NCBI RefSeq assembly: GCF_041648055.1
Contig: NZ_JBAZPS010000008.1
Span: forward strand, 28,742-92,741
Length of the DNA: 64,000 bases
Source of the DNA: Brevundimonas sp.
GTDB lineage: Bacteria > Pseudomonadota > Alphaproteobacteria > Caulobacterales > Caulobacteraceae
Reading direction: 5' to 3'
Shown: positions 26,896 through 48,829 of the stretch, in pieces
How positions within the stretch are numbered: position 1 is the stretch's first letter
Layout of the letters: each line of letters begins with the position of its first letter
Notes under the pieces: generated by a model
Database searches by the model: none
What the model saw: the letters and a program-made list of their open reading frames with translations, nothing else
What the model was told of the DNA's origin: nothing
Program-made: the position numbers and the translations under genes

Positions 26896-29847
26896 CTACC
26901 AGCGCTTGATCAGCTGGAACGCCGCGACCCGGCCAAGCGGACCCGCCTGCCCCGGATCGAAGCCGAAGCCTTGCGGGGAGTCATAGAAGGGCGGGTCCGC
27001 GTCGAAGACGTTCTGGATCGTCAGGGCCACCTCGACGCCCTCGGCCAATCCGGTTCCGACCCCCGCCCAGCGCAGCTGAAGATCGGCGGTCGTGAAGGCG
27101 TCGATGGTCCGCCCCGCCGCGTCGCGGTAGTCGGCGGCATGGTTGACGCCGATCCGCGTCGACCAGTCCCCGCGCGTCCAGGTTGCGGCGGCCTGGGCGC
27201 GGAGATCGACGGGGAAGCCCACCAACCCGAGAACGTCCTCGCGAACGGCCACCGGGGTCACCCGACGGCTGTAGTCCAGCAGGTAGGATGCCGAGAGGGA
27301 GAGACCGAAAGCGTTGTCTCCTACGTCGAAGTCGTAGCTGCCCGCCAGATCGATCCCCTCGACGTTCAGTTCGCCGGTGTTGGCCCATCGGCCGTCGAGG
27401 ATCACCGAGTAGGACGACGCCGGATAAAGGGTTGGCGAGACGAAGCGCGGGTCGGCGAGGAAAGCCTGGACGCGAGCCAGATCGGCCGCATTCCCGGGCG
27501 TGAGACGGGTGACGAACGGCGACAGGCTCGGATCGACGAGGATGCTGGTGATGTTCTCCAGCGCCGGTCGACCGATCTTGTTCTCGAAACGGATGTCAAA
27601 ATAGCCCGCGCTGAACCGCATGCCGGGCCGGGGCGCCCATTCGACCCCGAGGGTGAGGCTATCGGCCGTTTCCGGTTCGAGGTCGGTATTCCCGCCGGAC
27701 TGCAGGATCGCCACGCGGCTGACCCCGGAGTCGGACACGGTCAGGGGACCGAGCTGGACCCGATCGAAGACTTCGGTGAGGGCGGGGGCGCGAAAGGACG
27801 TCCCCCAGCTGGCGCGAACCGTGAACGGGTCCGAGGGCTGCCAGATCAGGCCGATCTTGGGATTGGAGGTCGTGCCGACGTCGTCATAGTCCTCGGCGCG
27901 CCCCGCCAGGGTAAGCTCCAGACGCTTGATCCCGGGCATTGCATTGGCCTCGCCCACCAGCGGCGCCCGCACCTCCATGAAGACGGCGCCGATGTCGCGG
28001 ACCTGGGGGTCGCCGATGGTGATGACCGGAGCCACGCCCGAAGCGAAGTTCTGGCTGCGACGGTTGAACTCCTCGCGCCGGAACGACGCGCCGATCGCAA
28101 TCCGGAGGTCCCCGCCCGGCAGTCTCAGGGGTGAGCCGTCCAGCATCAGATTGGCGGAGCTGATACGGCTGCGGTAGCGGGACCAGGTGTAGCCCTGCGA
28201 GATAAAATCCAGAACCGCGTCGCCGTTGGCCCCGCCCGACCCGAAGGGATTGAAGTATCCGTCCCGGGCTGCGTTGTAGGAGGTCGCCGGATTGTCGACG
28301 GCGTTGCCCAGCGCTTCGGCGAGGAAGGTGCTGTTAAGCTGGTTGTTCGTGCCGCCTTCGCTGAGCTCCTCGGCGAAGGCGCCGTAGGCTTCCAGCGTCC
28401 AGTCCCTCGGCAGCGCGATCTCGATCCCGGCGGTCCCGCCGAGGCTGCGCGACATGCCGTAGCTCTCGGTCGGACCGAGGTCGCCGATGAAATTGTAGGC
28501 GATCAGGTGGGAGGCCGAACCGGTCGGCGATACGAAGAAGGGGTTGTTGCGTCCGATGGTGAGAATGCTCACGGGCGCGAGGTTGGCGTATTCGAACGTC
28601 CGCCGGCTGAAGCGGGCGTCGGCGGACACTTCGATGTGCGAACCGAGGTCTTGGCGGACGCTCGCATAAGCGCTGTGGCGCTCCTGGAGCGGGAGGATGT
28701 CGACGTCGGCCCGCCGGTTGCCGAGGTTGGCGCCGCCTGCCTCGAAGTCCGACGGCGTGCGCGCCGTGCCGTCGGGACCGGGTCGGATCGCATAGGTGCT
28801 GCGATAGGCGCCGCGAGACGCGTCGAACACAACGATGCTGCCGGGCGGCCCGTAGAAGCTGCGGCGATCCGTGCCGCCCCAGGGCCTCAGATCGCCGGTG
28901 GCGGTGTAGTCGCGGTCCGCCGAGTTGAGCGCCGATTGATGCTGATACTCGTAGGACAGGAGCGCCGAGCCGGTCTCCCACCGCGTCCCGAACAGGTGGG
29001 ACGCCAGCAGGTCCTCGCCCCCGCCTTGCGCCGCAGAGGCGCGCAGCCGGGTTTCCTGACCCTCATAGCTCCGCCGCAGGATGACGTTCACCACGCCGGC
29101 CACCGCGTCAGATCCATACAGGGCCGAGGCGCCGTCGAGCAGCACGTCCACGCGCTCGACCGCTCCACCCGGGATCGCCGAGACATCGGCGAACTCCCCC
29201 TTCATTCCGGTCCCCGCCAGGCGCCGCCCATTGACCAGAACGAGCGTCGCGTCCGCCCCGAGCCCTCGGAGGTTCACGCCCGTCGCCGTCGAGGTGTTGC
29301 TTCCTAGCGAGTCGGCGCCCAGCAGCAGGCTGTTGGGTGTCGCGTTGCCCGAATAGGACTGAGGCAGCCGAACGAGGGCGTCGGCGACCGTGGCGTCGCC
29401 GCGCCGGTCGAGGTCCGAGCGCGAGATCACGGTCACGGGGGACGGCGATTCCCCGGGGCCTCTCAAAAGCGTCCCAGTGACGACAACCTCGTCGATGACG
29501 GTGGCGTCGTCGGTCGCCGCCTGCTGCGCCGAAGCCCGGCGCAGAACTATCACGCCCGGCCGACTGCGCGACCAGACGACGCCGCTTCCGGCGAGCAGGC
29601 GATCCAGCGCCGTGTCCGGCGCATGCCGTCCGCTCAGTCCCGGTGTCCGAAGGCCGGCCACGAGGTCGGCGGTATAGAGCATCTGCACATTGGCCTGCCG
29701 GGCGTAGGCGATGAGCGCCGCGTCCAGCGAGCCGCTGGAAATATTGAACTCGCGGGCCTCTTGGGCCTGCACGTCGGTGGCGAAGGCCACGGCGGCGATG
29801 GGCACGAGCGCGACGCCGGCAAGCAGGCTTCGGGTGCAGATGGTCAT
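26896..29847 (-). CDS. TonB-dependent receptor with N-terminal STN signalling domain (FecA-type transducer)
   Basis: 983 aa; signal peptide, FNISSGSLDAALIAYARQANVQMLY STN domain, plug, beta-barrel ending ...AAFQLIKRW. Confidence 0.92.
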   Translation of the reverse strand: MTICTRSLLAGVALVPIAAVAFATDVQAQEAREFNISSGSLDAALIAYARQANVQMLYTADLVAGLRTPGLSGRHAPDTALDRLLAGSGVVWSRSRPGVIVLRRASAQQAATDDATVIDEVVVTGTLLRGPGESPSPVTVISRSDLDRRGDATVADALVRLPQSYSGNATPNSLLLGADSLGSNTSTATGVNLRGLGADATLVLVNGRRLAGTGMKGEFADVSAIPGGAVERVDVLLDGASALYGSDAVAGVVNVILRRSYEGQETRLRASAAQGGGEDLLASHLFGTRWETGSALLSYEYQHQSALNSADRDYTATGDLRPWGGTDRRSFYGPPGSIVVFDASRGAYRSTYAIRPGPDGTARTPSDFEAGGANLGNRRADVDILPLQERHSAYASVRQDLGSHIEVSADARFSRRTFEYANLAPVSILTIGRNNPFFVSPTGSASHLIAYNFIGDLGPTESYGMSRSLGGTAGIEIALPRDWTLEAYGAFAEELSEGGTNNQLNSTFLAEALGNAVDNPATSYNAARDGYFNPFGSGGANGDAVLDFISQGYTWSRYRSRISSANLMLDGSPLRLPGGDLRIAIGASFRREEFNRRSQNFASGVAPVITIGDPQVRDIGAVFMEVRAPLVGEANAMPGIKRLELTLAGRAEDYDDVGTTSNPKIGLIWQPSDPFTVRASWGTSFRAPALTEVFDRVQLGPLTVSDSGVSRVAILQSGGNTDLEPETADSLTLGVEWAPRPGMRFSAGYFDIRFENKIGRPALENITSILVDPSLSPFVTRLTPGNAADLARVQAFLADPRFVSPTLYPASSYSVILDGRWANTGELNVEGIDLAGSYDFDVGDNAFGLSLSASYLLDYSRRVTPVAVREDVLGLVGFPVDLRAQAAATWTRGDWSTRIGVNHAADYRDAAGRTIDAFTTADLQLRWAGVGTGLAEGVEVALTIQNVFDADPPFYDSPQGFGFDPGQAGPLGRVAAFQLIKRW

Positions 29848-29929
29848 GAGTTAGGTCCTCTCTGACGCAACGGCGCGTCGAACAGGAGACGCAGGGCCGT
29901 CATCTCATCTGAGTTGGAGCCTGAAATTT

Positions 29930-30925
29930 TTATCCGCCGACGGATCGCGCGGTGAGGCGGACGCCGCCGTCGGCCTGCGGCTGGGCGGTCAGACCGAAGA
30001 GATCCGAGACGGCCGCGACGAAGGCGTCCCTGTCACCCGTGGCGAAGGAGCCGTTGACCGCGACCTCCGATGCAGGCCCGGCCGCCAGGACAATCTTGTC
30101 CGGAAGGTAGCGATTGACCTCGGCGACGGCGTCGCGCAGCGGCGTGCCCCGGAAGACCAGGTGACCCTGCGACCAACTCGTCTCGACCGTCGCATCGACA
30201 GCAACCGGCGCAGGGTCACGACGCGATGTCTGGACCTGTTGCCCCGGGGTCAGGCGCCAGTTGCGGGTCTCGGCCTGGACATCGGTGACCGCGACCGATC
30301 CCTCGACGAGGGTCACACGCGCCCCGGTGGATTCGCGCCGGACGTCGAAGACGGTGCCCAGGGCCGTGACCTCCGTGCCCCCGGCCTCGACCCTGAAGGG
30401 GCGGGTCGCATCGTGGGCGACGGTGAACAACGCCTGACCCTGTTCGAGCACGATCCGCCGTTCGCCAGAGGCGAACCGCACCCTGATCCGCGTGTCCGTA
30501 TCCAGCCGGACCTGGGTCCCGTCGTCGAGCGCGACGACCCGTTGGCCGCCGATCTCCGTTTCGTACAGGCCTCGCGTGGGCAACCAGAAGACCAGCGCTA
30601 GCGCCAGGGCGGCCACGGGGACGAGGACGACCGCGACCGGGAAGAGCCGTCTGGACCATTCGCGTTTCGTCCTTGGCCTTGAGGTCCGCAAGGTGGCCTG
30701 GGTCAGGTTCTGGATGTCGCCATCCGACGAGAGGGATCCCGTGCTCCGCCAAAGACGCTCGACCTTGTGATAGGCCTCCACGTTGCCAGCGGTCTCGCGC
30801 CACGTCTTGAACGCATGGAGCGTGTCGGCGGACACGGGGCGTTCCCCGAGTCGGACATGCCACTCGACCGCTTCACGGTCCGCAACGCCTGTCGCGCTCT
30901 GCGGGTCGCTCATGGCGTTCCCCAT
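29930..30925 (-). CDS. FecR-family anti-sigma/transmembrane sensor
   Basis: 331 aa; EAVEWHVRL ... FKTWRE N-terminal pattern, central TM helix, FecR periplasmic domain. Confidence 0.85.
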   Translation of the reverse strand: MGNAMSDPQSATGVADREAVEWHVRLGERPVSADTLHAFKTWRETAGNVEAYHKVERLWRSTGSLSSDGDIQNLTQATLRTSRPRTKREWSRRLFPVAVVLVPVAALALALVFWLPTRGLYETEIGGQRVVALDDGTQVRLDTDTRIRVRFASGERRIVLEQGQALFTVAHDATRPFRVEAGGTEVTALGTVFDVRRESTGARVTLVEGSVAVTDVQAETRNWRLTPGQQVQTSRRDPAPVAVDATVETSWSQGHLVFRGTPLRDAVAEVNRYLPDKIVLAAGPASEVAVNGSFATGDRDAFVAAVSDLFGLTAQPQADGGVRLTARSVGG

Positions 30926-30928
30926 CGG

Positions 30929-31429
30929 CTACAGCCGCAACTGGGCTGCGCAGTACTCGAGCGCCTTGATCATCCGCCATTGGACCGTGGTCACGGGGAT
31001 GTTCAGCCGCTCGCCTATCTCTTGATACTCCAGATGCGCGAAACGGCTCAAGACGAACACGTCCCTTAGTCGGGGCGGCATCGTCATAACGATCTGCTTG
31101 AGAAGGACCATGTCGATCTGAGAGGCGGGATCCACGAGCGGATCAGGGTCCAGCCGATCGTTGGCCCCGAGAGGCGCTGGCCCCCGCCGCCTGGCCTTAT
31201 CAATGATCAGGTTGTCGACGATCTTCAAAAGCAGCGCCTTGGGATGCTCGATCAGACCCTTGCGACTGTATGGCGCGGCCCGGATCCAGGCCTCCTGGGC
31301 GAGGTCCTCGGTTTCGTCGCCGAAGCGCTGCCTCAGCCGCGCCGTGAGCCAACCGGAATAGGCGCGATAGAGATCGTGAAGGCCGTGATCGGCCTCCTTG
31401 TCTCCCACACCTCCAGTTCGATCCGACAC
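30929..31429 (-). CDS. ECF (FecI-type) RNA polymerase sigma factor
   Basis: Start set at GTG 31429 (GGAGG 7 nt upstream); sigma-70 region 2 (DLAQEAWIR) and region 4 (EIGERLNIPVTTVQWRM); longer track start 31558 possible. Confidence 0.85.
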   Translation of the reverse strand: MSDRTGGVGDKEADHGLHDLYRAYSGWLTARLRQRFGDETEDLAQEAWIRAAPYSRKGLIEHPKALLLKIVDNLIIDKARRRGPAPLGANDRLDPDPLVDPASQIDMVLLKQIVMTMPPRLRDVFVLSRFAHLEYQEIGERLNIPVTTVQWRMIKALEYCAAQLRL

Positions 31430-31787
31430 GGGCTCGCCTCCAGATGATGAGGCGAGCCCGGCCGAAGCACCGGGTGTTGAGACCATGCTTGAGGCATGCG
31501 CCGACGCCTTTAGCCCCCAAGTCGTTGTCCGAGGGGCCTGGACATACGCGCCAGCCACACCGCTGCCGCGGAGCGAAGATGTAGAATGATCGTCTCAAGC
31601 GAGGTTCTCACGCCTCGGCGCCGCCCGAAGGCGACGCACTCAAAGCTTGAATCATGGCGGCGGGGTTTGCAAGCGGTGGCGCATTGGGTGCGCATGTCAT
31701 CCACGACAAGCCAGCCGCGCGAGCCTCACCGCGCCTAAGCGCCCCATCGGGACACGCGCGTCTTGTCTGAATTCGCTGTCGCGGTCT

Positions 31788-32378
31788 TCAGGCGGTGAAC
31801 GGTCTCATCGATGCGACCTTGCGTATCCGATCGACGACCTCCTTCGCCGCTCGCTTGGCCTCCCCTCGTTTCATGCCCTTTCGGCGCAGCTTCAGGGCGG
31901 TGTGGGCGAGGAAGAGCCGGTCCCAGGTCGCCTTGAAGCCCGTGTCCGCCACCTCGACGATGATCTTCGGCTTCTGTGGATCGTCCTTGAGACGATCCCC
32001 TGGCCGGCCAGGTTGCACATAGAGGCCGCGATTCTGGAGGATCTGCTCCACGATGACCCCATGGTTCTTGTTGAGATCGAATTCCACCATCACCACTGCT
32101 TCCACCGGGCGAAGAAGGGTCAGGATGAGGGTCACCGTCTCCTCACGGTGCGGAAGCCTACCCCACTGGACCCGGACGTCTCCCGGCGGCCCATGGTCGT
32201 GAGCTGCGATCGCCGCGTCGATATCGGGACGCTCCGTGGTGTCGAGGATGACCAGGGGAAACATCCGACCGTCGCCCACCCCCACGGTGGCGAGCGATCC
32301 GTCGGCGATGATCGGCGCGATCAGCTTCTCGTGGCTATGGTTCAGGGCGATCATCGCCTTGCGGAACGCTCCGATCAT
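31788..32378 (-). CDS. hypothetical protein (196 aa), third gene of coupled operon
   Basis: ATG 32378 overlaps upstream stop (ATGA); no motif recognised; basic helical C-terminus. Confidence 0.6.
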   Translation of the reverse strand: MIGAFRKAMIALNHSHEKLIAPIIADGSLATVGVGDGRMFPLVILDTTERPDIDAAIAAHDHGPPGDVRVQWGRLPHREETVTLILTLLRPVEAVVMVEFDLNKNHGVIVEQILQNRGLYVQPGRPGDRLKDDPQKPKIIVEVADTGFKATWDRLFLAHTALKLRRKGMKRGEAKRAAKEVVDRIRKVASMRPFTA

Positions 32379-32896
32379 CGGAGACTCCAGGTCAGCATGT
32401 GGGTCTCGAGCGTCGTCTTCTCCTGATGCGTATCGGTCGCGACCAGCTCGTAGCCCTCGATGGTCGAGCCCTTCAAAAGGTCGGCGGCGACCGCGAACCG
32501 CACCCAACCTTCGACGGTGTGATGGGCGTCGATGCGCAACGGCATCAGGAGCATCGGCACGCTCTCGTCGGCATTGGGGATCGCCGGCGCCAACAAGGTC
32601 AACGGAATCTCGCGGCGGTGGCGGATGCACAGTTCCAGCCCGGCGACACTGTTGGCTGTGTCGGTTGGGTTGGCGATCTGGAGGTGGATGGCGAACGATC
32701 TCTTCCCGTCGATGTCGGAGACCTTGGAGTCGATGAGGCGGAGATCCAGCCGGGGCGCGCGACGGGCTTCCTGCCGCTCCGCCAGTCGCTGAGCGCGGTG
32801 CGCAGTGATCCAGCTCATGATCGCAACGACAAAGGCGGCGAGGGAGACGAGACCGGTCGCGATGGCGATCACGTCAGACGAGGTGAGACCTTTCAT
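32375..32896 (-). CDS. hypothetical single-pass membrane protein (173 aa)
   Basis: N-terminal TM helix VIAIATGLVSLAAFVVAIMSWI followed by a probably beta-rich domain; ATGA overlaps at both ends. Confidence 0.6.
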   Translation of the reverse strand: MKGLTSSDVIAIATGLVSLAAFVVAIMSWITAHRAQRLAERQEARRAPRLDLRLIDSKVSDIDGKRSFAIHLQIANPTDTANSVAGLELCIRHRREIPLTLLAPAIPNADESVPMLLMPLRIDAHHTVEGWVRFAVAADLLKGSTIEGYELVATDTHQEKTTLETHMLTWSLR

Positions 32897-33756
32897 CCGA
32901 TCGCCTCGCGCTTGCGGGCGATGCGCACTTCGGCAGCCGCATCCTGTGACGCCCTGAAAGGCCCATAGTCGGCCGAGATTTCCCCGAGGCGAGTGTTGTT
33001 CTCCTCATCGCCGACGATCTGGGTGAAGGCGACTCCCAGGGCGATCCCGATCATCAGGATGCGATCGAGCGTGTCGGCGATCCGCTCGGGATCCTCGGGA
33101 CCGACCAGATAGCCGTTCCAGCTCTCACCGTCGTCAGCCATCCTCATGTGCCGCTGCAGGGACTTGCCGGAGGGGTGAACGGCATCGTCCGACATCACGC
33201 GATAAAGGAGGTACAGGTGTCCCAGAGGGCCGAGCTCCGCGAGCTTCGAGATGTTCAGGTTCGACACGGATCCGATGCTGTCCACAACATCCTGAAGCAT
33301 CGCGGCGTCCGCGGACATACCGCTGCGGAGGATCGTTTTCGCCTGCCCCTTCTTGGCGGCGGCGGCATCCTCGATCATCACCGCGCGCGCCTTGTCCGGA
33401 TTGTCGTGAAGCGCGGCCATCAGCAGGGTGTTCTCCAGCAGTCCGCGCGCCAGTGTCCGCGCCTCAACATCCATGCCGCGTTCGGCCATCAGCACCGCTC
33501 CCTGCAACTGGGCGCAGGACCGATGCAGGAGAAGCAGGGCCATCGGCTCGCGGTCGAACGGCATGCCCCGCACGGTTTCGCAGGCCGCGGTGGCGGCCTT
33601 CTGAAGGCAGGCATTGAGGGCTTCGACGAGTTCGAACCCGAGGGCGTTGCCGTTCCGCCTGGCCTGGATGCGGTCCGAGATCGCCGTCGACAGAAAGCCT
33701 GCTTCGTTGAAAGTCGTCATGCTGCGGATAACACGGTCGTCCCGTCTTGAAGGCAA
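32893..33756 (-). CDS. hypothetical all-helical protein (DUF5677/AbiV-like impression only)
   Basis: TTG 33756 has GGGAGAG 7 nt upstream; alternative ATG 33720; helical sequence with ARGLLENTLLMAAL and SDDAVHPSG; family assignment from memory and weak. Confidence 0.55.
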   Translation of the reverse strand: MPSRRDDRVIRSMTTFNEAGFLSTAISDRIQARRNGNALGFELVEALNACLQKAATAACETVRGMPFDREPMALLLLHRSCAQLQGAVLMAERGMDVEARTLARGLLENTLLMAALHDNPDKARAVMIEDAAAAKKGQAKTILRSGMSADAAMLQDVVDSIGSVSNLNISKLAELGPLGHLYLLYRVMSDDAVHPSGKSLQRHMRMADDGESWNGYLVGPEDPERIADTLDRILMIGIALGVAFTQIVGDEENNTRLGEISADYGPFRASQDAAAEVRIARKREAIG

Positions 33757-33818
33757 GGGTCGTCTCTCCCTACCTAGGATTCACGCCCAGGGCGCACGGG
33801 GAGGGACTATTCGGCGGG

Positions 33819-36800
33819 ATGACGCAGCAAGGGTTCAGCGCGAAGGACATGGTCGGGGCCCGCGCCTTGTTGGCGTGGTCGCAAGCTGACCTGGCCAAGG
33901 CGGCGAATATTCACCCCAGCGAGGTCGCTGACTTCGAGCTCGATCGGCGTGAGGTCAGGCCTGCCGCCATCGAGGCCATGACTGAGGCGATCGCAGACGC
34001 CGGCGTCCGGAACGACGATCAAGGCCTCAGCCTCATTGAAGATCCCGCTGCGCCGACCCCCTTCTCCGGCGGGAACCCGACCCGCTTGATCGAGGCTTCC
34101 GACCTCGTCGTCTGGGCCGACAGCCGCGACGGCCAGGCTGGCATGCCCGAGCTTCTGAGCCGTTTGATCCGCGCCGAGCGCGGGGTCGCCGCCAGAGTTC
34201 GATTCCCGTCCGGCGACAGCGTCGCTCAACATGGCTGGGACGGCGAGGTCCGCGTTGTCGGCGCGTCGGTCAGGATTCCGGATGGCCAGTCGGGGTGGGA
34301 AACCGGGACCGACCAGAACAAGAAGTCAAAAGCCGATGGAGACATAGAGGCCCGAACGACGGATCACGGCGACCTCGACCCGGCGGATACGACGTTCGTC
34401 TTCGTAACGCCCCGTCGTTGGGCAAAGCAGAAGGACGTCTGGGCCAAGGCGCAGCGCGCCAAGCGCATCTGGAAGAACGTCCTGGCCTATGACGCCGACG
34501 ACCTGGTGGACTGGATCGAGTGCCATCCCGGCGTCGGCCAGTGGCTCGCAGTCCGCCTTGGCAAGCGCCCTAGAGATCTGAAGTCACTCGCGGACCTCTG
34601 GGCGGACTGGTCGGGCGCGACCCAGGTTCCGTTGAGCGGAGAGCTTACATGCATCGGACGCGACGAGGATGCTGCGGTCGTCCTGCGGTGGCTTTCGGCC
34701 CCCGCCTCAGAGCCGCTGTTCGTTCAGGCCGAGTCCGTCGAAGAGGCGGCGGCCTTTTTCCATGCGACGATCGAGATGTTGCCTGATCGGTACTATCGCG
34801 CCGTGGAAACCCGCGTCCTGGCGCCGGAAACATCGGCAGCGGCGGCGGAGCTTGCCGACGGCCTGACGCCGCTCATCCTCATCCTCAACGAGACGGAAGC
34901 CGGCGTCGCTCAGCGGCTCTCTCGAAAGGGCCATTATATCTACGTCGCCCTGGGCCCGAACTCGGAGGCGCCTGACTCAGCGCGTCGGTTGGCGAAGCCG
35001 ACCCGGAACCAGCTGCAGCAAGTGTTGGAGCGGATGGGCCTCGAGTACGGCCAGGCGCAGAATCTCTCGCTCGACGCCGGCCGTAGCCTCGCCGTCCTTC
35101 GCCGTCTCATGCCTGCGGCACCGGGCAGCCGTCCATCCTGGTCGATCCCGCAGCCGCCTCGTCCGATGCTGGGTGCGCTTCTCGCCGGCGGATGGCTCGA
35201 GACGCTGGACGGCGACAAGGCCGTCATCGAACAGCTGGCCGGCGTCCCGTACGAAGAGGCCGTCAGAGCGCTCGGGCCATACGCGACCGCTCTGGACGGG
35301 CCTCTGCGCAAGCGCGAAGACGCGTGGCGACTGAAATCGCCTCGCGACGCCTGGACCCTCCTCGCGCATAGTCTGACGGCTCCGGACATCGACCGCTTCC
35401 TGTCCGTCTATTGCGAAGTCTGCGCCGAGATCGATCCGACATGGGACATGGCGCCGGACGAGCGCTGGCTGGCTCCCATTCGGAACATCCACCCGCGTTT
35501 CTCGTCATTCCTGAAACAGTCGATGACGGAAACGATGGCGCTTCTGTCGTTGTACGGCGACCGGGCGGGTCTGGTGGACGGCGTCGAGGCGAAAGTCGCC
35601 AGGTCCCTCACCACAATTCTGGACGGCGCCACGGAGGCGATCTGGTGGTCCCTCGGACCCGTCCTGCCGAAGCTGGCGGAGGTCGCGCCTTCGGCCTTCC
35701 TTGGCGGCATCGAACGTGCGCTCGGCCCGACGCCCAGCCCACTGATCGCCTTCTTCGAGCCCGAGACGTCGACCCACACCGTCACGCGGCTTCCCCAGCT
35801 GATGTGGGCCTTGGAAAGACTGGCCTGGGATCCGGCTCTTCTGCCTCGGGTCGCCGACGTCCTGGCGCGGCTCGATGCGCTGGATGGGGGCGGCAACAAC
35901 GTCGCCCGTCCGAAGCAGGTTCTCACCACGATCTTCCTGTCGTGGTCTCCTCAAACCCACGCGACGCTGAAGCAGCGGCTGGCCGTCATCGACGGCCTGC
36001 GCAAACGACATGGAGACATCGCCTGGGATCTCATGATCTCACTCCTGCCGCGCTCGCACGCGATCACGATGCCGACGTCGTCTCCGCATTGGCGCAAGGC
36101 CGCGCCAACCGACCGCGAGGCGTCGCCTGAGACGGTCGTCCACGACTGCGTCGTAGAGGTCTCAGACCGGCTGATCGAGGATGTCGGCAATCGGCCAAAG
36201 CGTTGGAAGGCTCTGCTCAAGGCCATGGAGCTCCTTCTGCCCGACGCTCGGGCTGGGATCGGCCAGAAGTTGCTGGAGGCGGAGCCGACGATCATCGGCG
36301 AAGAGGATCGCGACTTCACGCGCACGGCCCTTCGGAAGGTCCTGGCTCGCCACCTGGAATTCCAGGACGCGGACTGGTCGATCCCGGCGGATGAATTGAC
36401 GGTCTTCCAGACCACCCTCGAGCGGTTCAAACCCGAGGATGTCCTCTGGAGGCATGCCTGGCTGTTTTCCAACGGCACCGGCTGGATGGGTTCCGTGCGC
36501 GAGTGGCGTCAGTCGCTGGACGAAGCGACCGCCGCCCGTGCGGCGGCCTTCGAGGAGATCGTCGAGGTGCGCGGAATCGACGGCGCGCTGGCCCTCCTCG
36601 ACCGATGCGATCAACCCCGGTGGGTGGGAGAGGCGGTAGCGCACTCGCCCGCCGCAGCGTCCTGGCGGTCAGACTTCATCGAACGCGGACTGGCCTCCGA
36701 TGACGGGCCGCTCTGGCAGGCCGCAGCCGAAGCGATCGGCCTTCTACGCGAGAAGGAAGGCGGCGCCGATTTCGTCACCCGCCTGCTGCCGGCGCCGGCC

Positions 36801-37871
36801 CCCCAACTGGACGAACGCGTGGTCGGACGCCTGCTCCACTTCCTCCCGGCGCGCCCCGAGACCTGGTCGGCGGTCGCGGCCTACGGCCTCTCGTCAGAAG
36901 ATCGCTACTGGCGTACTCTCGCGGGGTGGGCGGTGGCTGAGACCAAAGAGGAAACCGAGCACGCGATCCGGCGCTTCAACGTCGTCGATCGCGCTCGTGA
37001 CTCTCTCCATCTGATCGGAAGCCGCCTTGAAGTCGACCTCGATCCAAAGCTGATCGTCGAGACGCTCCACTTGGCGCTGAAGACGATGAACCAGGCGAGC
37101 GAGGACACGAACGAGCCGGTGATGCGGCTCCACTACCTCACGCGGATCCTCGCCCACCTCGAAAACCATCCCGAGGTGTCGGACGAAACCTTGGTCCTGC
37201 TCGAGTGGTACTACTTCCACATGCTGCGGTACTCCGAGCGACCCAGCCCGGCTTTACACCGCGAACTGGCGAGGAACCCGGACTTCTTCCTCCAGGTGCT
37301 GACCATGGTCTTCCTGCGGGACGACGACGGCGGCGGCGCAGACGAGGACCTCCCGGGCGGACCCGCGACGCCGGAACAGCGGGCCGCCATGGCCCGGCAC
37401 GGCTACGATGTGCTGGATGCTTGGAACCGCATCCCCGGCGCAGACGACAAGGGGCGGATCGACGGCGCCGAACTCGAGCGGTGGGTCACGGAAGTGCGCC
37501 GCCGCGCGTCGGAACTGGGACGCAGCCTGCCGGCTGACCTCCGGATCGGCCGCATCCTCGGGATGAGCGCAAAACCAGCCGGCGAGGTTTGGCCTCCCAT
37601 CGCCATCCGCGAGATTCTCGAGAGCGCAGGATCAGAGACCCTGGAGGATGCTTTCGTCTCGGGTGCGTATTCATCGCGCGGAGTGATCACCCGTGACCTG
37701 AGGGAAGGCGGTCGCAAGGAGCGGACGCTGTCTGACCGCTACAGAGATCACTCGTCGGCGATGGCGTCAGACTACCCCGTCACCGCCCGGCTACTGAATG
37801 ACATCGCCGATATCTACGACGGGCGGGCGAAGCGCGAAGATGACGAGGTCGAGGAGCGGAGCTGGCACTGA
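33819..37871 (+). CDS. very large (1350 aa) HTH-domain protein of unknown function
   Basis: Start set at ATG 33819; N-terminal XRE-like HTH ([27 protein letters not shown]); no Walker A seen by eye; long helical remainder. Confidence 0.75.
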
Positions 37872-37889: not shown

Positions 37890-38813
37890 TCAGCTTGCTG
37901 CGCCTCGAAGCTGATTGAGGCGCTCGCGGCAGACTTCGGCGACGACGGCCCCGAGGCGGCGGGCCGAAATCGCCAGCATTTCGAGGTCTTCCCGGCTGAC
38001 ATCGTACTGGTCCGAATAGCGGGCCTCGACATAGGCGCGCTTCAGCGTCTCGAACCGCCGCCGTTCGGCCCGCTGCTCACGCGGCCACGCCTCGACAAGG
38101 CGCTTGTCGATGTCCTCGGCCAGCGACCTCAGGAACTTGATGTTGTGGGACCGCGGGAAATAGAACGTGTGGACGAGCAGGAAACAGATGTAAGCCGCCT
38201 CCACAGTCTGGTGGAGTTGGAACGCTGCGTTCTTACGCCTCGAAAGCGTCGACTCCTGCGCCAGCAGGTGCGCGACGGTGTCGAGCCAGACTTCAATGTC
38301 CGCCTGCTTCGTATCGAAGTACCGCTGCGCCATCTCCAAGGCGTCAGCCGGCGTCATCGGCTTGGGAGTCGCCAACGGATGGCCCGGCAGCTCGTAGAGC
38401 ATGACCCCGTCGCGGGCGATGTCGGTCCAGAAGTATTCGCCGCGTCCGAGAGCCTGGTTCACCTCGGCGAGGTCGTGCACGATGATGTTGACGATCCGGC
38501 CAACCGACGGGTCGTGGAGGATCTTATTCTCGGCCTCCCACCAGTAGTCGGCGATGTCGGTCAGCTTGGGGTGGCTGACGATGACCAGCAGATCAAAGTC
38601 CGAGAGGTAGCCGTTGTCCGGTTCGTCCACCCAGTCGGTGCGGGCGTAGCTGCCGAACAGGATGATCTTGAGGACCTTGCCGCCCTTGCGCCAATCCGAC
38701 GTGCCGCCCGCGCCTTTCCGGAGCGCCGCTTCGAACTCCGTCAGCAGGGTCGCGCGGACGTGCGCCAGCTCCTGCTGCTGACGTTCGGGGAGATGGTCGA
38801 GGGTCGTTTTCAT
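37890..38813 (-). CDS. fused minimal nucleotidyltransferase (MNT) + HEPN domain protein
   Basis: 307 aa; LFGSYARTDW ... SDFDLLVIV (GS..DxD NTase motifs); C-terminal helical HEPN-like domain with AYVEARY. Confidence 0.75.
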   Translation of the reverse strand: MKTTLDHLPERQQQELAHVRATLLTEFEAALRKGAGGTSDWRKGGKVLKIILFGSYARTDWVDEPDNGYLSDFDLLVIVSHPKLTDIADYWWEAENKILHDPSVGRIVNIIVHDLAEVNQALGRGEYFWTDIARDGVMLYELPGHPLATPKPMTPADALEMAQRYFDTKQADIEVWLDTVAHLLAQESTLSRRKNAAFQLHQTVEAAYICFLLVHTFYFPRSHNIKFLRSLAEDIDKRLVEAWPREQRAERRRFETLKRAYVEARYSDQYDVSREDLEMLAISARRLGAVVAEVCRERLNQLRGAAS

Positions 38814-45685: not shown

Positions 45686-46069
45686 CTAGAAGTCGAAGCC
45701 AAGCTGACCCTCTGCAATGACAGGGCCGCTCCGACGCCGGGGGCGCGACTTCGGCTTGCTTCCTCGCGGTGACGGCGACGGGTTCGGCTTTGCCGTCGGC
45801 GTCGCGATGACGCGGTCTTCGCGAGGACGGGGCGGCGTCGGCCTGATCGGTCGTGTCGCCGGCTGGGGTTCCGGTGCCGTGGAACCGCGGCTCTCGTTCC
45901 AGCGGGCGATATCGCGCTCGCGCCAGGCCACCCGTCCGGGCGAGATCGACACCGGCTCCGGAAAGTCTCCGGCCTGACGCATGCGCCAGGCGGTCGTGCG
46001 GCCGAGGCCCGTCAGGTCCCGGACCTGCCGCCAGCCCAGGAACCGCTCGAGCCCGTCGTCATGGGCCAT
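45686..46069 (-). CDS. AlpA-family (phage/ICE) HTH transcriptional regulator with Pro-rich basic tail
   Basis: Start ATG 46069; FLGWRQVRDLTGLGRTTAWRMRQAGDFPEPVSISPGRVAWRERDIARW. Confidence 0.75.
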   Translation of the reverse strand: MAHDDGLERFLGWRQVRDLTGLGRTTAWRMRQAGDFPEPVSISPGRVAWRERDIARWNESRGSTAPEPQPATRPIRPTPPRPREDRVIATPTAKPNPSPSPRGSKPKSRPRRRSGPVIAEGQLGFDF

Positions 46070-46244
46070 GACGCTGCTCCAGAAGCGCCGTCGCGCGATC
46101 CCCCATGACCGAGGCGAGCGCCGCCGCATCGTTGGCCGCGTCCAGGGGATCCCGGCTCCACCAGACCAGCAGCACGGCCTTGAGCGGATAGCTGACCGTC
46201 GGATCGTTCATCAGGGTCTCGAGACTGGGGCGGGTGGTCGTCAT
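46059..46244 (-). CDS. small hypothetical protein (61 aa)
   Basis: ATG 46244 with GGGAGG 6 nt upstream, ATGA overlap with the upstream gene. Confidence 0.5.
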   Translation of the reverse strand: MTTTRPSLETLMNDPTVSYPLKAVLLVWWSRDPLDAANDAAALASVMGDRATALLEQRHGP

Positions 46245-46552
46245 GGGGTCGCCTCCCGACGCCGGGCCTCCCGCCGCAGCCGCTGGCGCTCGCTGGATGA
46301 GGCGGCGGGCGCCGTGATCTGGGCCTCGGCCCAGGTCTCCAGCAAGTCCAGCGGGTAGTAGGGCTTGTTTCGGATGTGCCGGCACGGCGGGCCGCCCGAC
46401 CCGGTCGAATAGGCGCGCGCCAGGGTCGTCGGCTTCATCCGGATGCCTTTGCCCTCCAGGAATACGGACGCCTCCGCGCGGGTCAGGAGCGTCTCCCGGG
46501 GCGACGACGCGGCCGCCTCCGCGCCGTCATGAGGGGCCGTCGCGAAGGTCAC
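46241..46552 (-). CDS. HTH_17/excisionase-like DNA-binding protein
   Basis: GTG 46552 overlaps SLT stop (GTGA), GGAGG 7 nt upstream; LLTRAEASVFLEGKGIRMKPTTLARAYSTGSGGP. Confidence 0.65.
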   Translation of the reverse strand: MTFATAPHDGAEAAASSPRETLLTRAEASVFLEGKGIRMKPTTLARAYSTGSGGPPCRHIRNKPYYPLDLLETWAEAQITAPAASSSERQRLRREARRREATP

Positions 46553-47157
46553 AGCCCGGCCTCCGCCGGGACGCATTCCCGCGACGATCGCACCCCGCGC
46601 CCCGCCGTGAGCGCCAGGTAGCAGTTGATCACCGAGACGACGTAATTCTGGGTCTCGGTGATGTTCGGGATCCGGCCCAGCCGGGCGACCCGATCCGGTC
46701 CCGAATTATAGGCCGCGAGGGCAAGGCGGAGGTCGCCGAAGCGGAGGATCTGCCGGGCCAGATAGTCGGCCCCTCCCCGCAGATTCTCATAGGGATCGAA
46801 ACGGTCGCGCACGTCGAGATCCGCGGCGGTGCCCGGCATCAGCTGGGTCAGGCCGCAGGCGCCGGCGTGAGAGCAGGCCTGGGCGCGATAGGCGCTTTCC
46901 ACCACGACCAGGGCATGGAGCAGCTTGCGATCCAGACCATGCCGGTCGGCCGCTTCGGCGATGGCGTCGGCGAAGGGCTGGTCAAGGTCCGCCAGACGAA
47001 CGGCCTCGAGGCCAGCGGCCTCCGGTGCGGGTGCTTCCGGAACGACGCCCACGAACAGGTCGCCGCCGGCCGGACGCCAGTCGACGCGGGTCTGGGCCGC
47101 GACCGGCGTCGCCGCCATGGCGATGACGGCGGCAAGAGGAAGAAGGTGGCTCACCAT
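46549..47157 (-). CDS. lytic transglycosylase (SLT domain, VirB1-like)
   Basis: Signal peptide; ESAYRAQACSHAGACGLTQLMPGTA ... AYNSGP. Confidence 0.85.
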   Translation of the reverse strand: MVSHLLPLAAVIAMAATPVAAQTRVDWRPAGGDLFVGVVPEAPAPEAAGLEAVRLADLDQPFADAIAEAADRHGLDRKLLHALVVVESAYRAQACSHAGACGLTQLMPGTAADLDVRDRFDPYENLRGGADYLARQILRFGDLRLALAAYNSGPDRVARLGRIPNITETQNYVVSVINCYLALTAGRGVRSSRECVPAEAGL

Positions 47158-47654
47158 GTCAGGGTCTCCCGATAGACGCCCTCGATCTGGGCGGTCCTCA
47201 CCGGCCCGAAGTACCGGCTGTCCAGGCTGGACGGCGTATCGCCGAGCAGAAGTCGTTCGTCGGCGGCGAGCCTGCGACAGCCTCGCCAGGCCGGAAGCGC
47301 GACGCCCGCGCTATCCCGGGCGTGGATGCGGACGGTGCGCATCGGCGCGATCAGCCACCGGCCGTCCGAACACACCATCTCGCCGCCCGTCGCCGCCACC
47401 CGTTTGATCAGCCGCACCTCGCCGGGCATCCCCTGGCGCGAGAGATAGGGCCGCACGATCTCGGGCTGACGAATGGCGACCACCGCGCCGCGCTCGATGT
47501 CCCGGGCGTCGGCGCGGACATAGACGCCCCGAGGCAGGCTCGGGCTCTCATTGATCAGGGCGACGGCGGGCCGCTGCGCCGCGACCCCGCCGACGGCGAA
47601 GAGGCCGACGGCGGGCGCGACGGCCGCCACGAGAAGACAACGAAGACGGGTCAT
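47151..47654 (-). CDS. traF: conjugative-transfer signal peptidase TraF (S26 family)
   Basis: 167 aa; SPSLPRGVY ... IKRVAATGGEMV ... LDSRYFGPV. Confidence 0.8.
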   Translation of the reverse strand: MTRLRCLLVAAVAPAVGLFAVGGVAAQRPAVALINESPSLPRGVYVRADARDIERGAVVAIRQPEIVRPYLSRQGMPGEVRLIKRVAATGGEMVCSDGRWLIAPMRTVRIHARDSAGVALPAWRGCRRLAADERLLLGDTPSSLDSRYFGPVRTAQIEGVYRETLTW

Positions 47655-48829
47655 CGGCGGTACGGCTCCAGAATGAGGTCGCGGGTGATCATCACCCGAA
47701 CCGGAGCCCCCGCCCGGACCCTTATGGACGGCTGGACGCCGAGCTCGCGATCGACGAGCCGTCCGCCGACCTGGGAGGCCTCGATCGAGGCTGCGCTCCC
47801 CGCACTGGCGGCGAACGAGCGGTCCTCGGATCCGCCGCGCGCCAGTTCGCCCAGGGTCGTGATGGCGCCCGCGAACAGGGTCGCCACGCCGAGCGGCAGA
47901 AGCCTTCGATCCACCTCTCCCCGCACGCCGACCGCGCCCTGCGCGTCCACGCCCGGTTCTTCGGACAGGATCAGGCTCTTGCCGTTGGGAAGGATCAGCC
48001 GATCCCAGACCAGGAAGGCCCGACGGTCGCCGTGGGCGCTCTCGCCTTCGTGGCGTCCGATCAGGCGCGTCCCCTGCGGGACGACGAGATGGCGACCGGT
48101 GATGGAGTCGAACACATTCTGGCTGACCGTGGCCACGACCGGGCCGGGACGCGAGGTGTCCACGGCCGTCAGCAGCACGCCCGGGATGATGGCGCCGGCC
48201 TTCAGCTCATAGGGGGAAACCGGCGCCAGGAGGCCGTGGGGACTGTAGATCGCGCCATAGTCCCGCATCGCCGGGGACGGCGGCGCATCCGATCGCCCGC
48301 CTCCGGCCGGAGCGGCGGCCCCGCTCGACGGGCCTCCGAAGAACAGCCCGGACGCCGCCGCCTGCTCCACCGGTCGCGGCCCTCTGGGCGTCGCGGCGTA
48401 TGAGGGCGCCGGCACGCGAGCGGGCGGCGGCGAGGCGACGGGAGGTTCATCTTCCGGCGTGGCGCCCCGGCGCTCCGGCAAGGCGTCCGCCCGGGCGAGC
48501 CGGTCATAGCTCGCGGGCTGGTCGGTCACCCGCTCCGAGGGTCGAACGCTGCCCCGGGCCTCGCCCGCGCCACCGGCCTCGGCGGCGTCCCGGGCCTGAC
48601 GCGTCATCTGCGGCTGGACGACGAAGGCCCAGGCGAGCGAGCCGGACACAAGCAGGGCGGCGACCATCACCGCGCCCTGGACGACGAGCTTGCGGATGCG
48701 GACGGCGCCCGGCCGCGGCGCCCGGCCCATCAGGGGCGGCGGAGGCGCCTTGGGCGTCGCTGTCGGGGTGGACGGAGGCGGGGCGACGTCGTCGCGAGGG
48801 GTGTCTGGAGAGAGATTGGGATCGGTCAT
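47651..48829 (-). CDS. trbI: conjugal transfer protein TrbI (VirB10 family)
   Basis: 392 aa; Pro-rich N-terminus, TM helix, conserved C-terminal VirB10 domain; operon position. Confidence 0.9.
   Translation of the reverse strand: MTDPNLSPDTPRDDVAPPPSTPTATPKAPPPPLMGRAPRPGAVRIRKLVVQGAVMVAALLVSGSLAWAFVVQPQMTRQARDAAEAGGAGEARGSVRPSERVTDQPASYDRLARADALPERRGATPEDEPPVASPPPARVPAPSYAATPRGPRPVEQAAASGLFFGGPSSGAAAPAGGGRSDAPPSPAMRDYGAIYSPHGLLAPVSPYELKAGAIIPGVLLTAVDTSRPGPVVATVSQNVFDSITGRHLVVPQGTRLIGRHEGESAHGDRRAFLVWDRLILPNGKSLILSEEPGVDAQGAVGVRGEVDRRLLPLGVATLFAGAITTLGELARGGSEDRSFAASAGSAASIEASQVGGRLVDRELGVQPSIRVRAGAPVRVMITRDLILEPYRR

What the first reader, a model, noticed from the sequence alone, without database searches (positions are those of the whole stretch)
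31788..33756. Translationally coupled three-gene operon of unknown function (helical protein, single-pass membrane protein, 196-aa protein)
Three minus-strand ORFs are chained by ATGA stop/start overlaps at 32893-32896 and 32375-32378, which is strong evidence for co-translation in fixed stoichiometry. The first (up to 287 aa) is all-helical; the weak DUF5677/AbiV-like resemblance is from memory only. The second has one N-terminal TM helix and a probably beta-rich ectodomain or cytoplasmic domain. The third has no motif I recognise. The operon sits between the lasso locus and a giant HTH protein in clearly accessory DNA. A small membrane component plus soluble partners is a common layout for abortive-infection modules.
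Basis: partly seen in the sequence, partly recalled or inferred. Interest (0 to 1): 0.65.

Follow-up and report, generated by a model that had tools for sequence, protein, structure and literature searches.

The report
Mobile two-gene membrane cassette plus DUF5677
The three overlapping genes are real, but only the last two (a membrane-anchored beta-sandwich protein and a soluble protein with no solved or viral structural match) form a conserved unit, one that moves between bacterial phyla on prophages, plasmids and conjugative elements and sits among anti-phage genes, so it is probably an undescribed defence module that picked up a DUF5677 gene in Brevundimonas.

Summary
Three minus-strand genes, A (32893-33720), B (32375-32896) and C (31788-32378), are chained by ATGA overlaps, have in-gene Shine-Dalgarno sites and are under purifying selection (dN/dS 0.08-0.26). 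The trio is not the conserved unit. B lies directly upstream of C in 128 of 129 loci with room for it, across nine bacterial phyla, one archaeal MAG, three plasmids and P2-like prophages. B and C co-evolve (r=0.83), and no third gene is conserved. A is a genuine DUF5677 protein (57 bits against a 27-bit cutoff), but it accompanies B-C only in Brevundimonas. Elsewhere the upstream slot is empty (77%) or holds unrelated conflict genes: AbiJ/Abi_C, PDC-S32, RES, a PDC-S24 Fic protein and DUF2321. B is an N-out/C-in single-pass anchor with a cytoplasmic Ig-like sandwich, the same architecture as mycobacterial Mpr. C has a confident model (pLDDT 89.7), no match in PDB or BFVD, a conserved polar residue set and a basic C-terminal hairpin. 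Pfam, NCBIfam, PHROGs, PADLOC and the literature I searched do not describe B or C. Best reading: an undescribed, autonomous two-gene anti-mobile-element cassette. The function is inferred from genomic context only.

The parts
32893..33720 (-). Gene A: DUF5677 protein, 275 aa from the ATG at 33720 (alternative TTG start at 33756 gives 287 aa). Lineage-specific first gene of the operon.
   Evidence: Pfam PF18928 at 57.1 bits against a 27.1-bit cutoff, covering profile positions 4-165 of 166. Conserved R67, R92, E96, Y170, Y173, S177 and H182 are shared with annotated DUF5677 proteins. dN/dS is 0.09-0.13. A is found with B-C only in Brevundimonas-type loci.
32375..32896 (-). Gene B: 173-aa single-pass membrane protein with a TM helix at about residues 9-30, a basic juxtamembrane helix to residue 45 and a cytoplasmic Ig-like beta-sandwich at 51-164.
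   Evidence: AF2 model with pLDDT 84.9. Foldseek hits to ApaG, YcdA, TMEM106B and LEA_2 sandwiches at E 2e-4 to 4e-3. Positive-inside rule: 0.7 K/R before the TM helix against 5.1 after it. Conserved N76, L89, P119, G130, F134 and D155. Adjacent to C in 128 of 129 loci.
31788..32378 (-). Gene C: 196-aa soluble alpha/beta protein of an unannotated family, with a conserved polar residue set and a basic C-terminal helical hairpin.
   Evidence: AF2 model with pLDDT 89.7 and pTM 0.86. No PDB match (best E 0.095, TM<0.2) and no BFVD match. No Pfam signal in any of 28 members. 691 representative clusters in 1.84 billion proteins; the 150 best are all 139-264 aa. Conserved D46, R50, H60, D67, Y120, Q122 and D128. 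The last 50 residues have mean net charge +5.6.
32893..32896 (-). ATGA overlap of the A stop and B start, with an SD-like GAGG at 32904-32907.
   Evidence: The overlap persists as GTGA in L040-type variants.
32375..32378 (-). ATGA overlap of the B stop and C start, with an SD-like GGAG at 32385-32388.
   Evidence: A B/C overlap is conserved across the family.
33721..33818 (.). Intergenic leader between A and the divergently transcribed giant gene. The 65 nt next to A are nearly invariant among Brevundimonas variants and are probably a shared promoter/operator.
   Evidence: 2 substitutions in about 65 nt, although dS in the genes is about 0.25-0.3. No Rfam family. Folding is not significant, z = -0.8. 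No sigma-70 consensus match.

Best explanation
The operon is a composite. Its conserved core is the B-C pair, an autonomous and horizontally mobile two-gene cassette. B is anchored in the inner membrane by one N-terminal helix (N-out, C-in) and holds an Ig-like beta-sandwich against the cytoplasmic face of the membrane. C is translated by coupling from the same mRNA. It probably docks onto B, and it carries the likely catalytic or ligand-binding site (D46, R50, H60, D67, Y120, Q122, D128) plus a basic helical hairpin that could bind nucleic acid or acidic lipid. I infer that the pair protects its carrier (prophage, plasmid, conjugative element or host) against incoming phages or other mobile DNA by acting at the membrane. 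It could attack or block the invader as it enters (non-abortive, as for Mpr), or it could damage the membrane or cell after sensing infection (abortive). In Brevundimonas a DUF5677 gene was fused upstream by a 4-nt overlap. It is most likely a second, separate conflict gene that is co-expressed with B-C, not an obligate subunit. Shown here: gene reality, translational coupling, B-C co-occurrence and co-evolution, B's topology and fold class, absence of known relatives, and the mobile/defence genomic context. Inferred: the physical B-C complex, catalysis by C, and the defence function and its mode.
For: B is immediately upstream of C in 40 of 40 loci and in 128 of 129 loci, with overlapping stop and start codons. 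No third gene is conserved. B and C distances correlate at r=0.83, Mantel 0 of 2000, and nearest neighbours cross phylum boundaries, for example Gemmataceae with Haloechinothrix at 57%. The contexts are: the window's conjugative element with NTase-HEPN, AlpA, SLT, TraF-like and TrbI genes; a Rhizobium plasmid, between an ABC-three-component system and a PIN protein; a Clostridium plasmid, between rep and parA; TIR and Eco57I, ParE/resolvase, PIN/HEPN-NTase, and T4SS/PLD neighbours; ArdA, Fic and MobA; and P2-like prophages, between ogr and int and between gpV and gpS, positions reported as P2 defence hotspots (PMC13586616). PADLOC hits among the 132 neighbours include PDC-S24, PDC-M01A, SAVED-PDDEXK, DrmC, PtuA, MTases and mad3/8. 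Tightly coupled upstream genes are known or candidate defence genes: AbiJ-like, PDC-S32, RES and PDC-S24/SoFic. For B, see topology and fold. Mpr has the same TM + linker + DUF4352 layout and defends against phage D29 (PMC12596739). C has many conserved polar residues while B has few.
Against: No experiment links B or C to defence. The association is qualitative, because I could not compute a background rate or per-locus defence counts. PADLOC 2.0 has no model for either protein, and C is absent from 50,697 deposited phage genomes. Several loci have ordinary neighbours (aminotransferase, MMPL, amidohydrolase). The mirror-tree correlation can arise from shared inheritance alone. C's conserved residues were not mapped in 3D, so a single pocket is not shown. 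No B-C complex was modelled. The 4-nt overlaps with upstream genes in 7 lineages could mean that B-C does work together with upstream partners.
Confidence: 0.55

Rival explanations
1. One reading: A, B and C form one three-component abortive-infection system in which the DUF5677 protein is the effector or sensor, and B-C is its membrane partner in fixed stoichiometry.
For: ATGA overlaps chain all three genes. The trio, including the A/B overlap, is conserved in all Brevundimonas contigs examined. In 16 of 70 non-redundant loci another conflict-type gene sits tightly upstream of B, 7 of them with a 4-nt overlap, so B-C may cooperate with interchangeable upstream proteins.
Against: A is absent from every B-C locus outside Brevundimonas, even at 74% C identity. 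77% of loci have no coupled upstream gene. DUF5677 genes elsewhere are solo genes. The upstream partners are mutually unrelated, and several are stand-alone defence candidates in their own right.
Confidence: 0.15
2. B-C is an addiction (toxin-antitoxin-like) module that stabilises mobile elements. One partner, for example the membrane protein B, is toxic, and the other neutralises it. There is no anti-phage role.
For: It is a two-gene, translationally coupled cassette on plasmids, ICEs and prophages. On the Clostridium plasmid it sits between rep and parA. TA genes are frequent neighbours: ParE, PIN, YhaV/PrlF and HEPN-NTase.
Against: Both proteins are larger (173-220 aa) than typical type II pairs. 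Neither shows an antitoxin-type DNA-binding domain or a known toxin fold. Its positions in P2-like prophages are defence hotspots. TA and defence roles are not mutually exclusive.
Confidence: 0.15
3. B-C is an ordinary accessory membrane function, such as envelope stress or ion homeostasis as suggested for ApaG/CorD-type sandwiches, and is carried on mobile DNA by chance.
For: B's best fold matches are ApaG-family proteins and generic Ig-like sandwiches. Some loci have metabolic neighbours.
Against: The distribution is sparse and patchy: 35 of 185,579 species representatives, a lower bound from a pattern-based scan. Nearest neighbours cross phylum boundaries. No metabolic or transport partner is conserved. 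Mobile and defence genes recur as neighbours.
Confidence: 0.08

Closest known systems
Mpr (multicopy phage resistance protein) of Mycobacterium smegmatis
   Same: B shares its architecture: one N-terminal transmembrane helix, a linker and a C-terminal beta-sandwich of the DUF4352 type. Mpr oligomerises in the membrane and protects against phage D29 without killing the cell (PMC12596739). Three of 36 B-family members weakly match Pfam DUF4352. B's model matches YcdA (4r4g) at E 6.9e-4, TMq 0.46; that YcdA carries DUF4352 is from my memory only.
   Different: The window's B does not match DUF4352 at E<=1. Mpr is a single-gene system of about 24 kDa with a reported N-terminal exonuclease and nucleotide hydrolysis, whereas B is shorter and always paired with C, which Mpr lacks. 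There is no detectable sequence similarity between B and phage proteins. Mpr's topology was not compared.
DUF5677 (PF18928), with AbiV and AbiJ-type HEPN abortive-infection proteins as proposed relatives
   Same: A is a bona fide DUF5677 member. Like AbiV and AbiJ genes, it is an all-helical protein of about 250-290 aa found on mobile DNA next to TA genes. In other lineages AbiJ/Abi_C-type genes occupy the same slot upstream of B.
   Different: A has no sequence link to AbiV or HEPN models or to the Abi_C and AbiJ-like partners. The candidate R...H pair is Rx7H, and the R is not conserved. The DUF5677 ORF tested in Enterococcus was not among the active defences (PMC12632615).
Two-gene defence systems that pair a membrane protein with a soluble partner (RexAB, Kiwa KwaAB), named from my own knowledge
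   Same: The layout is similar: a small membrane component plus a cytoplasmic partner, co-transcribed and carried on prophages or defence islands.
   Different: RexB and KwaA are multi-pass membrane proteins. No PADLOC model, Kiwa and the other catalogued systems included, matches B or C at E<=1. The folds differ.
Cargo genes of P2-like phages (old, tin, Z/fun and the hotspot systems)
   Same: B-C occupies cargo positions in P2-like prophages, next to the integrase and within the tail genes. These positions are listed as minor defence hotspots (PMC13586616; PMC9122126).
   Different: B-C is not one of the described hotspot systems. It is absent from E. coli complete genomes at the DNA level and from deposited phages.

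Membership tests
DUF5677 (Pfam PF18928), for protein A | Score above the Pfam gathering threshold over most of the model | tested here: met
   57.1 bits against a 27.1-bit cutoff, profile positions 4-165 of 166.
DUF5677 (Pfam PF18928), for protein A | Shares the conserved residues of proteins annotated as DUF5677 | tested here: met
   R67, G82, R92, E96, Y170, Y173, S177 and H182 are invariant in an alignment with three RefSeq 'DUF5677 domain-containing' plasmid proteins.
AbiV / HEPN RNases, for protein A | Match to an AbiV or HEPN sequence model or to a solved structure | tested here: not met
   No PADLOC family at E<=1. Pfam lists only DUF5677. PDB sequence and profile searches give nothing relevant.
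AbiV / HEPN RNases, for protein A | Conserved Rx4-6H catalytic motif | tested here: not met
   H182 is invariant. The nearest upstream R (R174) is 7 residues away in the window protein and is replaced by Q in one homologue.
AbiV / HEPN RNases, for protein A | HEPN four-helix fold and dimer | not tested
DUF4352 / Mpr-like membrane defence proteins, for protein B | Match to Pfam DUF4352 | tested here: not met
   The window's B has no DUF4352 hit at E<=1. Only 3 of 36 family members match weakly, best E 6.9e-5.
DUF4352 / Mpr-like membrane defence proteins, for protein B | N-terminal TM helix, then a linker, then a C-terminal beta-sandwich | tested here: met
   AF2 model: helix 6-45 and sandwich 51-164. 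One hydrophobic helix in 35 of 36 members. Sandwich fold hits.
DUF4352 / Mpr-like membrane defence proteins, for protein B | Exonuclease or nucleotide hydrolysis activity and membrane oligomerisation | not testable with these tools
   These are biochemical properties reported for Mpr (PMC12596739).
Catalogued anti-phage systems (PADLOC-DB 2.0.0) | Any component model matches A, B or C | tested here: not met
   0 families for each protein at E<=1.
Defence-island / mobile-element cargo cassette (guilt by association) | Recurrent neighbourhood of known defence, TA and mobile-element genes in unrelated genomes | tested here: met
   The result is qualitative, without a background rate.
Defence-island / mobile-element cargo cassette (guilt by association) | Genes inherited and transferred as a unit | tested here: met
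   128 of 129 adjacency. Mirror-tree r=0.83 and cross-phylum nearest neighbours.
Type II toxin-antitoxin pair, for B-C | Recognisable toxin fold plus an antitoxin with a DNA-binding domain | tested here: not met
   No Pfam, NCBIfam or PADLOC hits. The folds are a sandwich and an unmatched alpha/beta fold.
Pol-beta-type nucleotidyltransferases (cGAS/MNT-like), for protein C | hG[GS]x9-13Dh[DE]h motif and NTase fold | tested here: not met
   cGAS, MenT and Pol lambda appear only as noise (TM 0.12-0.14, prob <=0.06). There is no G[GS] or DxD in register: G37-R38 ... D46-T47, and D54 is not conserved.

The most novel reading that the evidence does not exclude
B-C defines an undescribed anti-phage or anti-plasmid system family present in at least nine bacterial phyla, on P2-like prophages, plasmids and conjugative elements. 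Its soluble subunit C would have a fold and active site with no solved or viral relative, meaning a new effector or sensor chemistry. The pair would also serve as a constant membrane module that can be plugged downstream of interchangeable toxin-domain proteins (DUF5677, AbiJ-type HEPN, RES, Fic and other upstream partners).
Probability: 0.25. Interest if true: 0.8.

Novelty: new variant of a known kind. Interest (0 to 1): 0.6.

Why it matters
If B-C is a defence system, it adds a compact cassette of about 1.1 kb, found in many phyla, built from two protein families that no database describes. C's confidently predicted fold has no solved or viral counterpart, so its structure and chemistry would be new information. 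The comparison with Mpr suggests that membrane-tethered Ig-like sandwiches may be a recurrent way to guard the site of DNA entry. The repeated tight fusion of B-C behind unrelated toxin-domain genes offers a testable case of how defence operons are assembled from modules. For annotation, the result turns a lineage-specific 'three hypothetical proteins' operon into a defined family with diagnostic features: gene order, overlap, TM + 'QExRR' + 'NPxD..N' + 'GW..F' + 'D.H' in B, and 'ILDT..RPD', 'GDV..W' and 'Y.Q.G.PGDR' in C.

Tried and rejected
1. Family libraries. Pfam, NCBIfam, PHROGs and PADLOC on A, B and C gave only DUF5677 for A. The weak hits for B (P2 GpR, DUF3301, holin) cover only the TM and juxtamembrane helix, and I rejected them. 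Scanning every family member gave nothing for C and only a weak DUF4352 signal for B.
2. Solved structures. PDB sequence and profile searches for A, B and C found nothing. Foldseek of C against PDB and BFVD found no usable match.
3. Fold ideas for C. I considered a nucleotidyltransferase and rejected it on motif and score. I considered a glyoxalase/VOC beta-alpha-beta-beta-beta module, but the hits have TM 0.14 over about 65 columns, so it stays a speculation. I also considered an H-Y-E ADP-ribosyltransferase reading of H60/Y120/E142 and rejected it, because H60 lies in a helix in the model.
4. A conserved third gene. Clustering genes within +-5 positions across loci found none. Pfam counts on 132 neighbours showed no recurrent partner.
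5. The DUF5677 link to upstream partners. hhalign of the A profile against the Abi_C and AbiJ-like partners gave probabilities of 0.2-0.3%. The profiles are shallow, so this is weak negative evidence.
6. Regulatory signals. The sigma-70 and terminator scans gave nothing on the operon strand. There is no Rfam family, and the conserved leader does not fold better than shuffles.
7. Literature. RefSeq accessions of B/C homologues appear in no paper. 'DUF5677' appears in two papers, neither showing a function.
8. Deposited phages and E. coli genomes. tblastn of A, B and C against the phage records found nothing. The L063 B-C DNA found nothing by blastn in the phage records or by megablast in the E. 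coli complete genomes.
9. Not done. 
Full report
OBSERVATION. The three minus-strand ORFs are present as described. A runs 32893-33720 from its ATG, or to 33756 from an upstream TTG. B runs 32375-32896 (173 aa) and C runs 31788-32378 (196 aa). The A stop and B start share ATGA at 32893-32896, and the B stop and C start share ATGA at 32375-32378. Each downstream start is preceded, inside the upstream gene, by a Shine-Dalgarno-like site: GAGG 7 nt before the B start and GGAG 6 nt before the C start (read). Third-position GC is 0.80-0.84 in the called frames. Compared with Brevundimonas variants recovered from public assemblies, dN/dS is 0.09-0.13 for A, 0.18-0.26 for B and 0.08-0.11 for C. All three are real genes under purifying selection. 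The long ORFs on the opposite strand are most likely by-products of the 67% GC content.

WHAT THE PROTEINS ARE. A scores 57.1 bits against Pfam DUF5677, whose cutoff is 27.1 bits, over nearly the whole model. It was not correct for AbiV. No PADLOC family (the library's AbiV model included) and no Pfam HEPN family matches A at E<=1. No solved structure is related by sequence or by profile. The only candidate R...H pair is spaced by seven residues, and its arginine is not conserved.

B and C match nothing in Pfam, NCBIfam, PHROGs or PADLOC. Scanning all 28 C-family and 36 B-family members changes this only slightly: C gets nothing, and B gets three weak DUF4352 hits. All public copies are named 'hypothetical protein'.

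AlphaFold2 gives B (pLDDT 84.9) a long helix at residues 6-45 followed by a beta-sandwich at 51-164. Foldseek places the sandwich among Ig-like folds: ApaG, YcdA, the TMEM106B luminal domain, a LEA_2 protein and Kir cytoplasmic domains, at E 2e-4 to 4e-3 and TM 0.3-0.46. Across the family, the 20 residues after the hydrophobic helix carry 5.1 Lys/Arg on average, against 0.7 in the 15 residues before it. The sandwich therefore faces the cytoplasm.

C gives a confident model (pLDDT 89.7, pTM 0.86) with the order beta-beta-alpha-beta-beta-beta-alpha-beta-beta-alpha-alpha. It has no significant match in the PDB (best E 0.095, TM below 0.2) or among predicted viral structures. In 141 diverse representatives, C keeps D46, R50, H60, D67, Y120, Q122 and D128 at 85% or more, and D26, D52, R129 and E142 at 77-82%. 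Its last 50 residues, a helical hairpin, have a mean net charge of +5.6. B keeps mostly structural residues (N76, L89, P119, G130, F134, D155). B therefore looks like an anchor or scaffold, and C looks like the subunit with a catalytic or ligand-binding site.

THE CONSERVED UNIT IS B-C, NOT A-B-C. The C family is real but uncommon. It has 691 representative clusters at E<=1e-3 among 1.84 billion, and the 150 best are all 139-264 aa (most about 190-200 aa), too short to hold a second domain. A pattern-based scan of one genome per species returned 35 loci. Together with the plasmid and prophage loci, the carriers come from Pseudomonadota, Acidobacteriota, Actinomycetota, Verrucomicrobiota, Planctomycetota, Gemmatimonadota, Cloacimonadota, Bacillota and the Syntrophaceae/Smithella group, plus one MAG labelled archaeon.

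In all 40 loci first examined, a B homologue lies immediately upstream of C on the same strand, and the C start almost always overlaps the B stop. After adding viral and metagenomic contigs, B is adjacent in 128 of 129 loci that have room for it. B and C distances correlate at r=0.83 (Mantel 0 of 2000). Nearest neighbours often cross phylum boundaries, which shows horizontal transfer of the pair as a unit. No third gene is conserved within five genes on either side, and Pfam counts on 132 flanking genes show no recurrent partner.

A is different. A jackhmmer search from A and a DUF5677 profile find it next to B-C only in Brevundimonas-type contigs. A locus whose C is 74% identical already lacks it.

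CONTEXT. In the window, the operon is transcribed divergently from a 1374-aa protein with a weak N-terminal HTH. Beyond that lie an NTase-HEPN fusion gene and then AlpA, SLT, a TraF-like S26 peptidase and TrbI. Related Brevundimonas contigs show the same block with variable flanks: YhaV/PrlF, RP-C, TrbI, and an inserted Peptidase_C1 pair. The operon is therefore cargo of a conjugative element.

Elsewhere B-C lies in these settings:
- between an ABC-three-component system and a 455-aa PIN protein on Rhizobium plasmids;
- between rep and parA on a 40-kb Clostridium plasmid;
- beside ParE, a resolvase and WGR; beside PIN, PDDEXK_3 and HEPN-NTase; beside a T4SS and a PLD nuclease; and beside TIR and Eco57I proteins;
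- beside ArdA, Fic and MobA.

Among the 132 flanking genes, PADLOC finds strong hits to PDC-S24, PDC-M01A, a SAVED-PDDEXK effector, DrmC, PtuA, methyltransferases and mad3/mad8.

Eight IMG/VR viral contigs also carry the pair. L063 is a P2-like prophage. Its tail module matches Erwinia phage ENT90 at 77% identity and many Peduovirus genomes, and B-C sits between ogr and the integrase. In L059 the pair sits between baseplate gpV and tail gpS (these gene identities are from my reading of the translations). The B-C DNA is absent from all 50,697 deposited phage genomes and, at the DNA level, from the E. coli complete genomes, so it is variable cargo. [quoted passage not shown]

THE UPSTREAM SLOT. 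Of 70 non-redundant loci with enough upstream sequence, 16 have a co-directional gene within 60 nt of B, and 7 of those overlap it by 4 nt. Some of the shortest upstream ORFs may be spurious. Besides DUF5677, the identifiable genes are:
- an Abi_C/AbiJ-like protein, with a 4-nt overlap;
- an AbiJ_NTD4/DUF7014 protein matching PADLOC PDC-S32;
- a 440-aa RES-domain protein, with a gap of about 4-12 nt;
- DUF2321;
- by my inspection only, a 662-aa P-loop ATPase, a protein with a PD-(D/E)xK-like C-terminus, and a helical protein shared by two loci.

One more locus (L035), not counted among the 16, has a Fic protein that is a strong PDC-S24/SoFic match about 43 nt upstream of B.

These proteins are unrelated to one another and to A. 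Several are candidate single-gene systems in their own right. The simplest reading is that B-C is an autonomous cassette that is often packed directly behind other defence genes. The repeated 4-nt overlaps keep open the idea that it cooperates with them.

MECHANISM. Shown: translational coupling; obligate co-occurrence and co-evolution; N-out/C-in topology with a cytoplasmic sandwich; and a conserved polar residue set and basic hairpin on C. Inferred: C binds B's sandwich at the inner face of the membrane, and the complex acts against incoming mobile DNA.

The nearest functional analogue of B is mycobacterial Mpr. Mpr has a single TM helix, a linker and a DUF4352 sandwich. It oligomerises in the membrane and destroys incoming D29 DNA without killing the cell (PMC12596739). 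B is not a demonstrable member of that family. The window protein does not match DUF4352, only 3 of 36 relatives do so weakly, and B is always paired with C, which Mpr lacks. I cannot tell whether B-C acts abortively or not.

I put about 0.55 on 'autonomous two-gene anti-mobile-element cassette with A as a separate co-expressed conflict gene'. The specific division of labour (B as anchor, C as catalyst) is much less certain. The rivals are the three-component reading (0.15), a pure addiction module (0.15) and a non-conflict membrane function (0.08).

NOVELTY AND VERDICT. A is a new member of a known but functionally uncharacterised family. B-C has no entry in Pfam (2025), NCBIfam (2026), PHROGs, PADLOC 2.0 or the literature I could search. 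I could not run the current DefenseFinder models or DefensePredictor. The layout of a membrane anchor plus a soluble partner on mobile DNA is a known kind, while the families, and C's fold, are not known. I therefore rate the finding as a new variant of a known kind, with interest 0.6. It is a solid, testable candidate system rather than a demonstrated one.

Noticed in passing
window 33747-37871 (+), probable start at the ATG at 33819: The giant 1374-aa protein transcribed divergently from A has only a weak N-terminal HTH_3/HTH_31 signal (about 20 bits, below cutoff) and a weak partial PADLOC hit to PD-Lambda-4_A (E 2.4e-7, residues 640-749). It is conserved next to A-B-C in Brevundimonas, but it is truncated to 543 aa in one contig (L049) where A-B-C stays intact.
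   Followed up: partly
window 37890-38813 (-): A 307-aa fusion of a nucleotidyltransferase domain (weak) and a HEPN domain (28 bits) lies on the far side of the giant gene. It resembles MNT-HEPN toxin-antitoxin pairs joined in one protein, and it is conserved in most Brevundimonas contigs.
   Followed up: partly
window 33721-33790: About 65 nt upstream of A's ATG are almost invariant among Brevundimonas variants (2 substitutions) although synonymous divergence in the flanking genes is 0.25-0.3. There is no Rfam match and no significant fold. This is possibly an operator for the HTH giant protein or a shared divergent promoter. An 8-nt direct repeat, GCAAGGGT, occurs at 33753 and 33827.
   Followed up: partly
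window 45686-48829 (-): AlpA, SLT transglycosylase, a TraF-like S26 peptidase and TrbI genes show that the region is part of an integrative conjugative element. The ORFs between 38941 and 45326 have no Pfam or PADLOC match, and their true gene calls are uncertain.
   Followed up: partly
L040-L045, between gene C and the ECF sigma gene (e.g. L040 9303-11938): One group of Brevundimonas variants carries an extra Peptidase_C1 gene (398 aa) plus a 479-aa gene inserted directly downstream of C. The window and the L046-L049 group lack it. This marks the C/sigma junction as a variable spot.
   Followed up: no
L140 577-1491: The gene upstream of B in this metagenome contig encodes a 304-aa protein with an N-terminal TM helix followed by RRK and a strand-rich region, the same general layout as B. 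It may be a distant B paralogue.
   Followed up: no
L076 4750-5442 and L081 273-1034: Two related (71% identical) helical proteins of 230-253 aa overlap the start of B by 4 nt. They carry a 'YRHHIELTLK' stretch that could be a HEPN-like R..H site.
   Followed up: no
L127 864-2852 and L105 4550-5464: By eye, the L127 upstream partner (662 aa, Walker A 'GKNESGKT', 'LLLDEPG') looks like an OLD/ABC-type defence ATPase. The L105 partner (304 aa) ends in a PD-(D/E)xK-like 'D...ELK' segment. Neither assignment was verified with a profile.
   Followed up: no
window 26896-31558 (-): The genes immediately next to C are an ECF sigma factor, a FecR-like anti-sigma protein and a TonB-dependent receptor, that is, an iron-uptake signalling cassette.
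   Followed up: no
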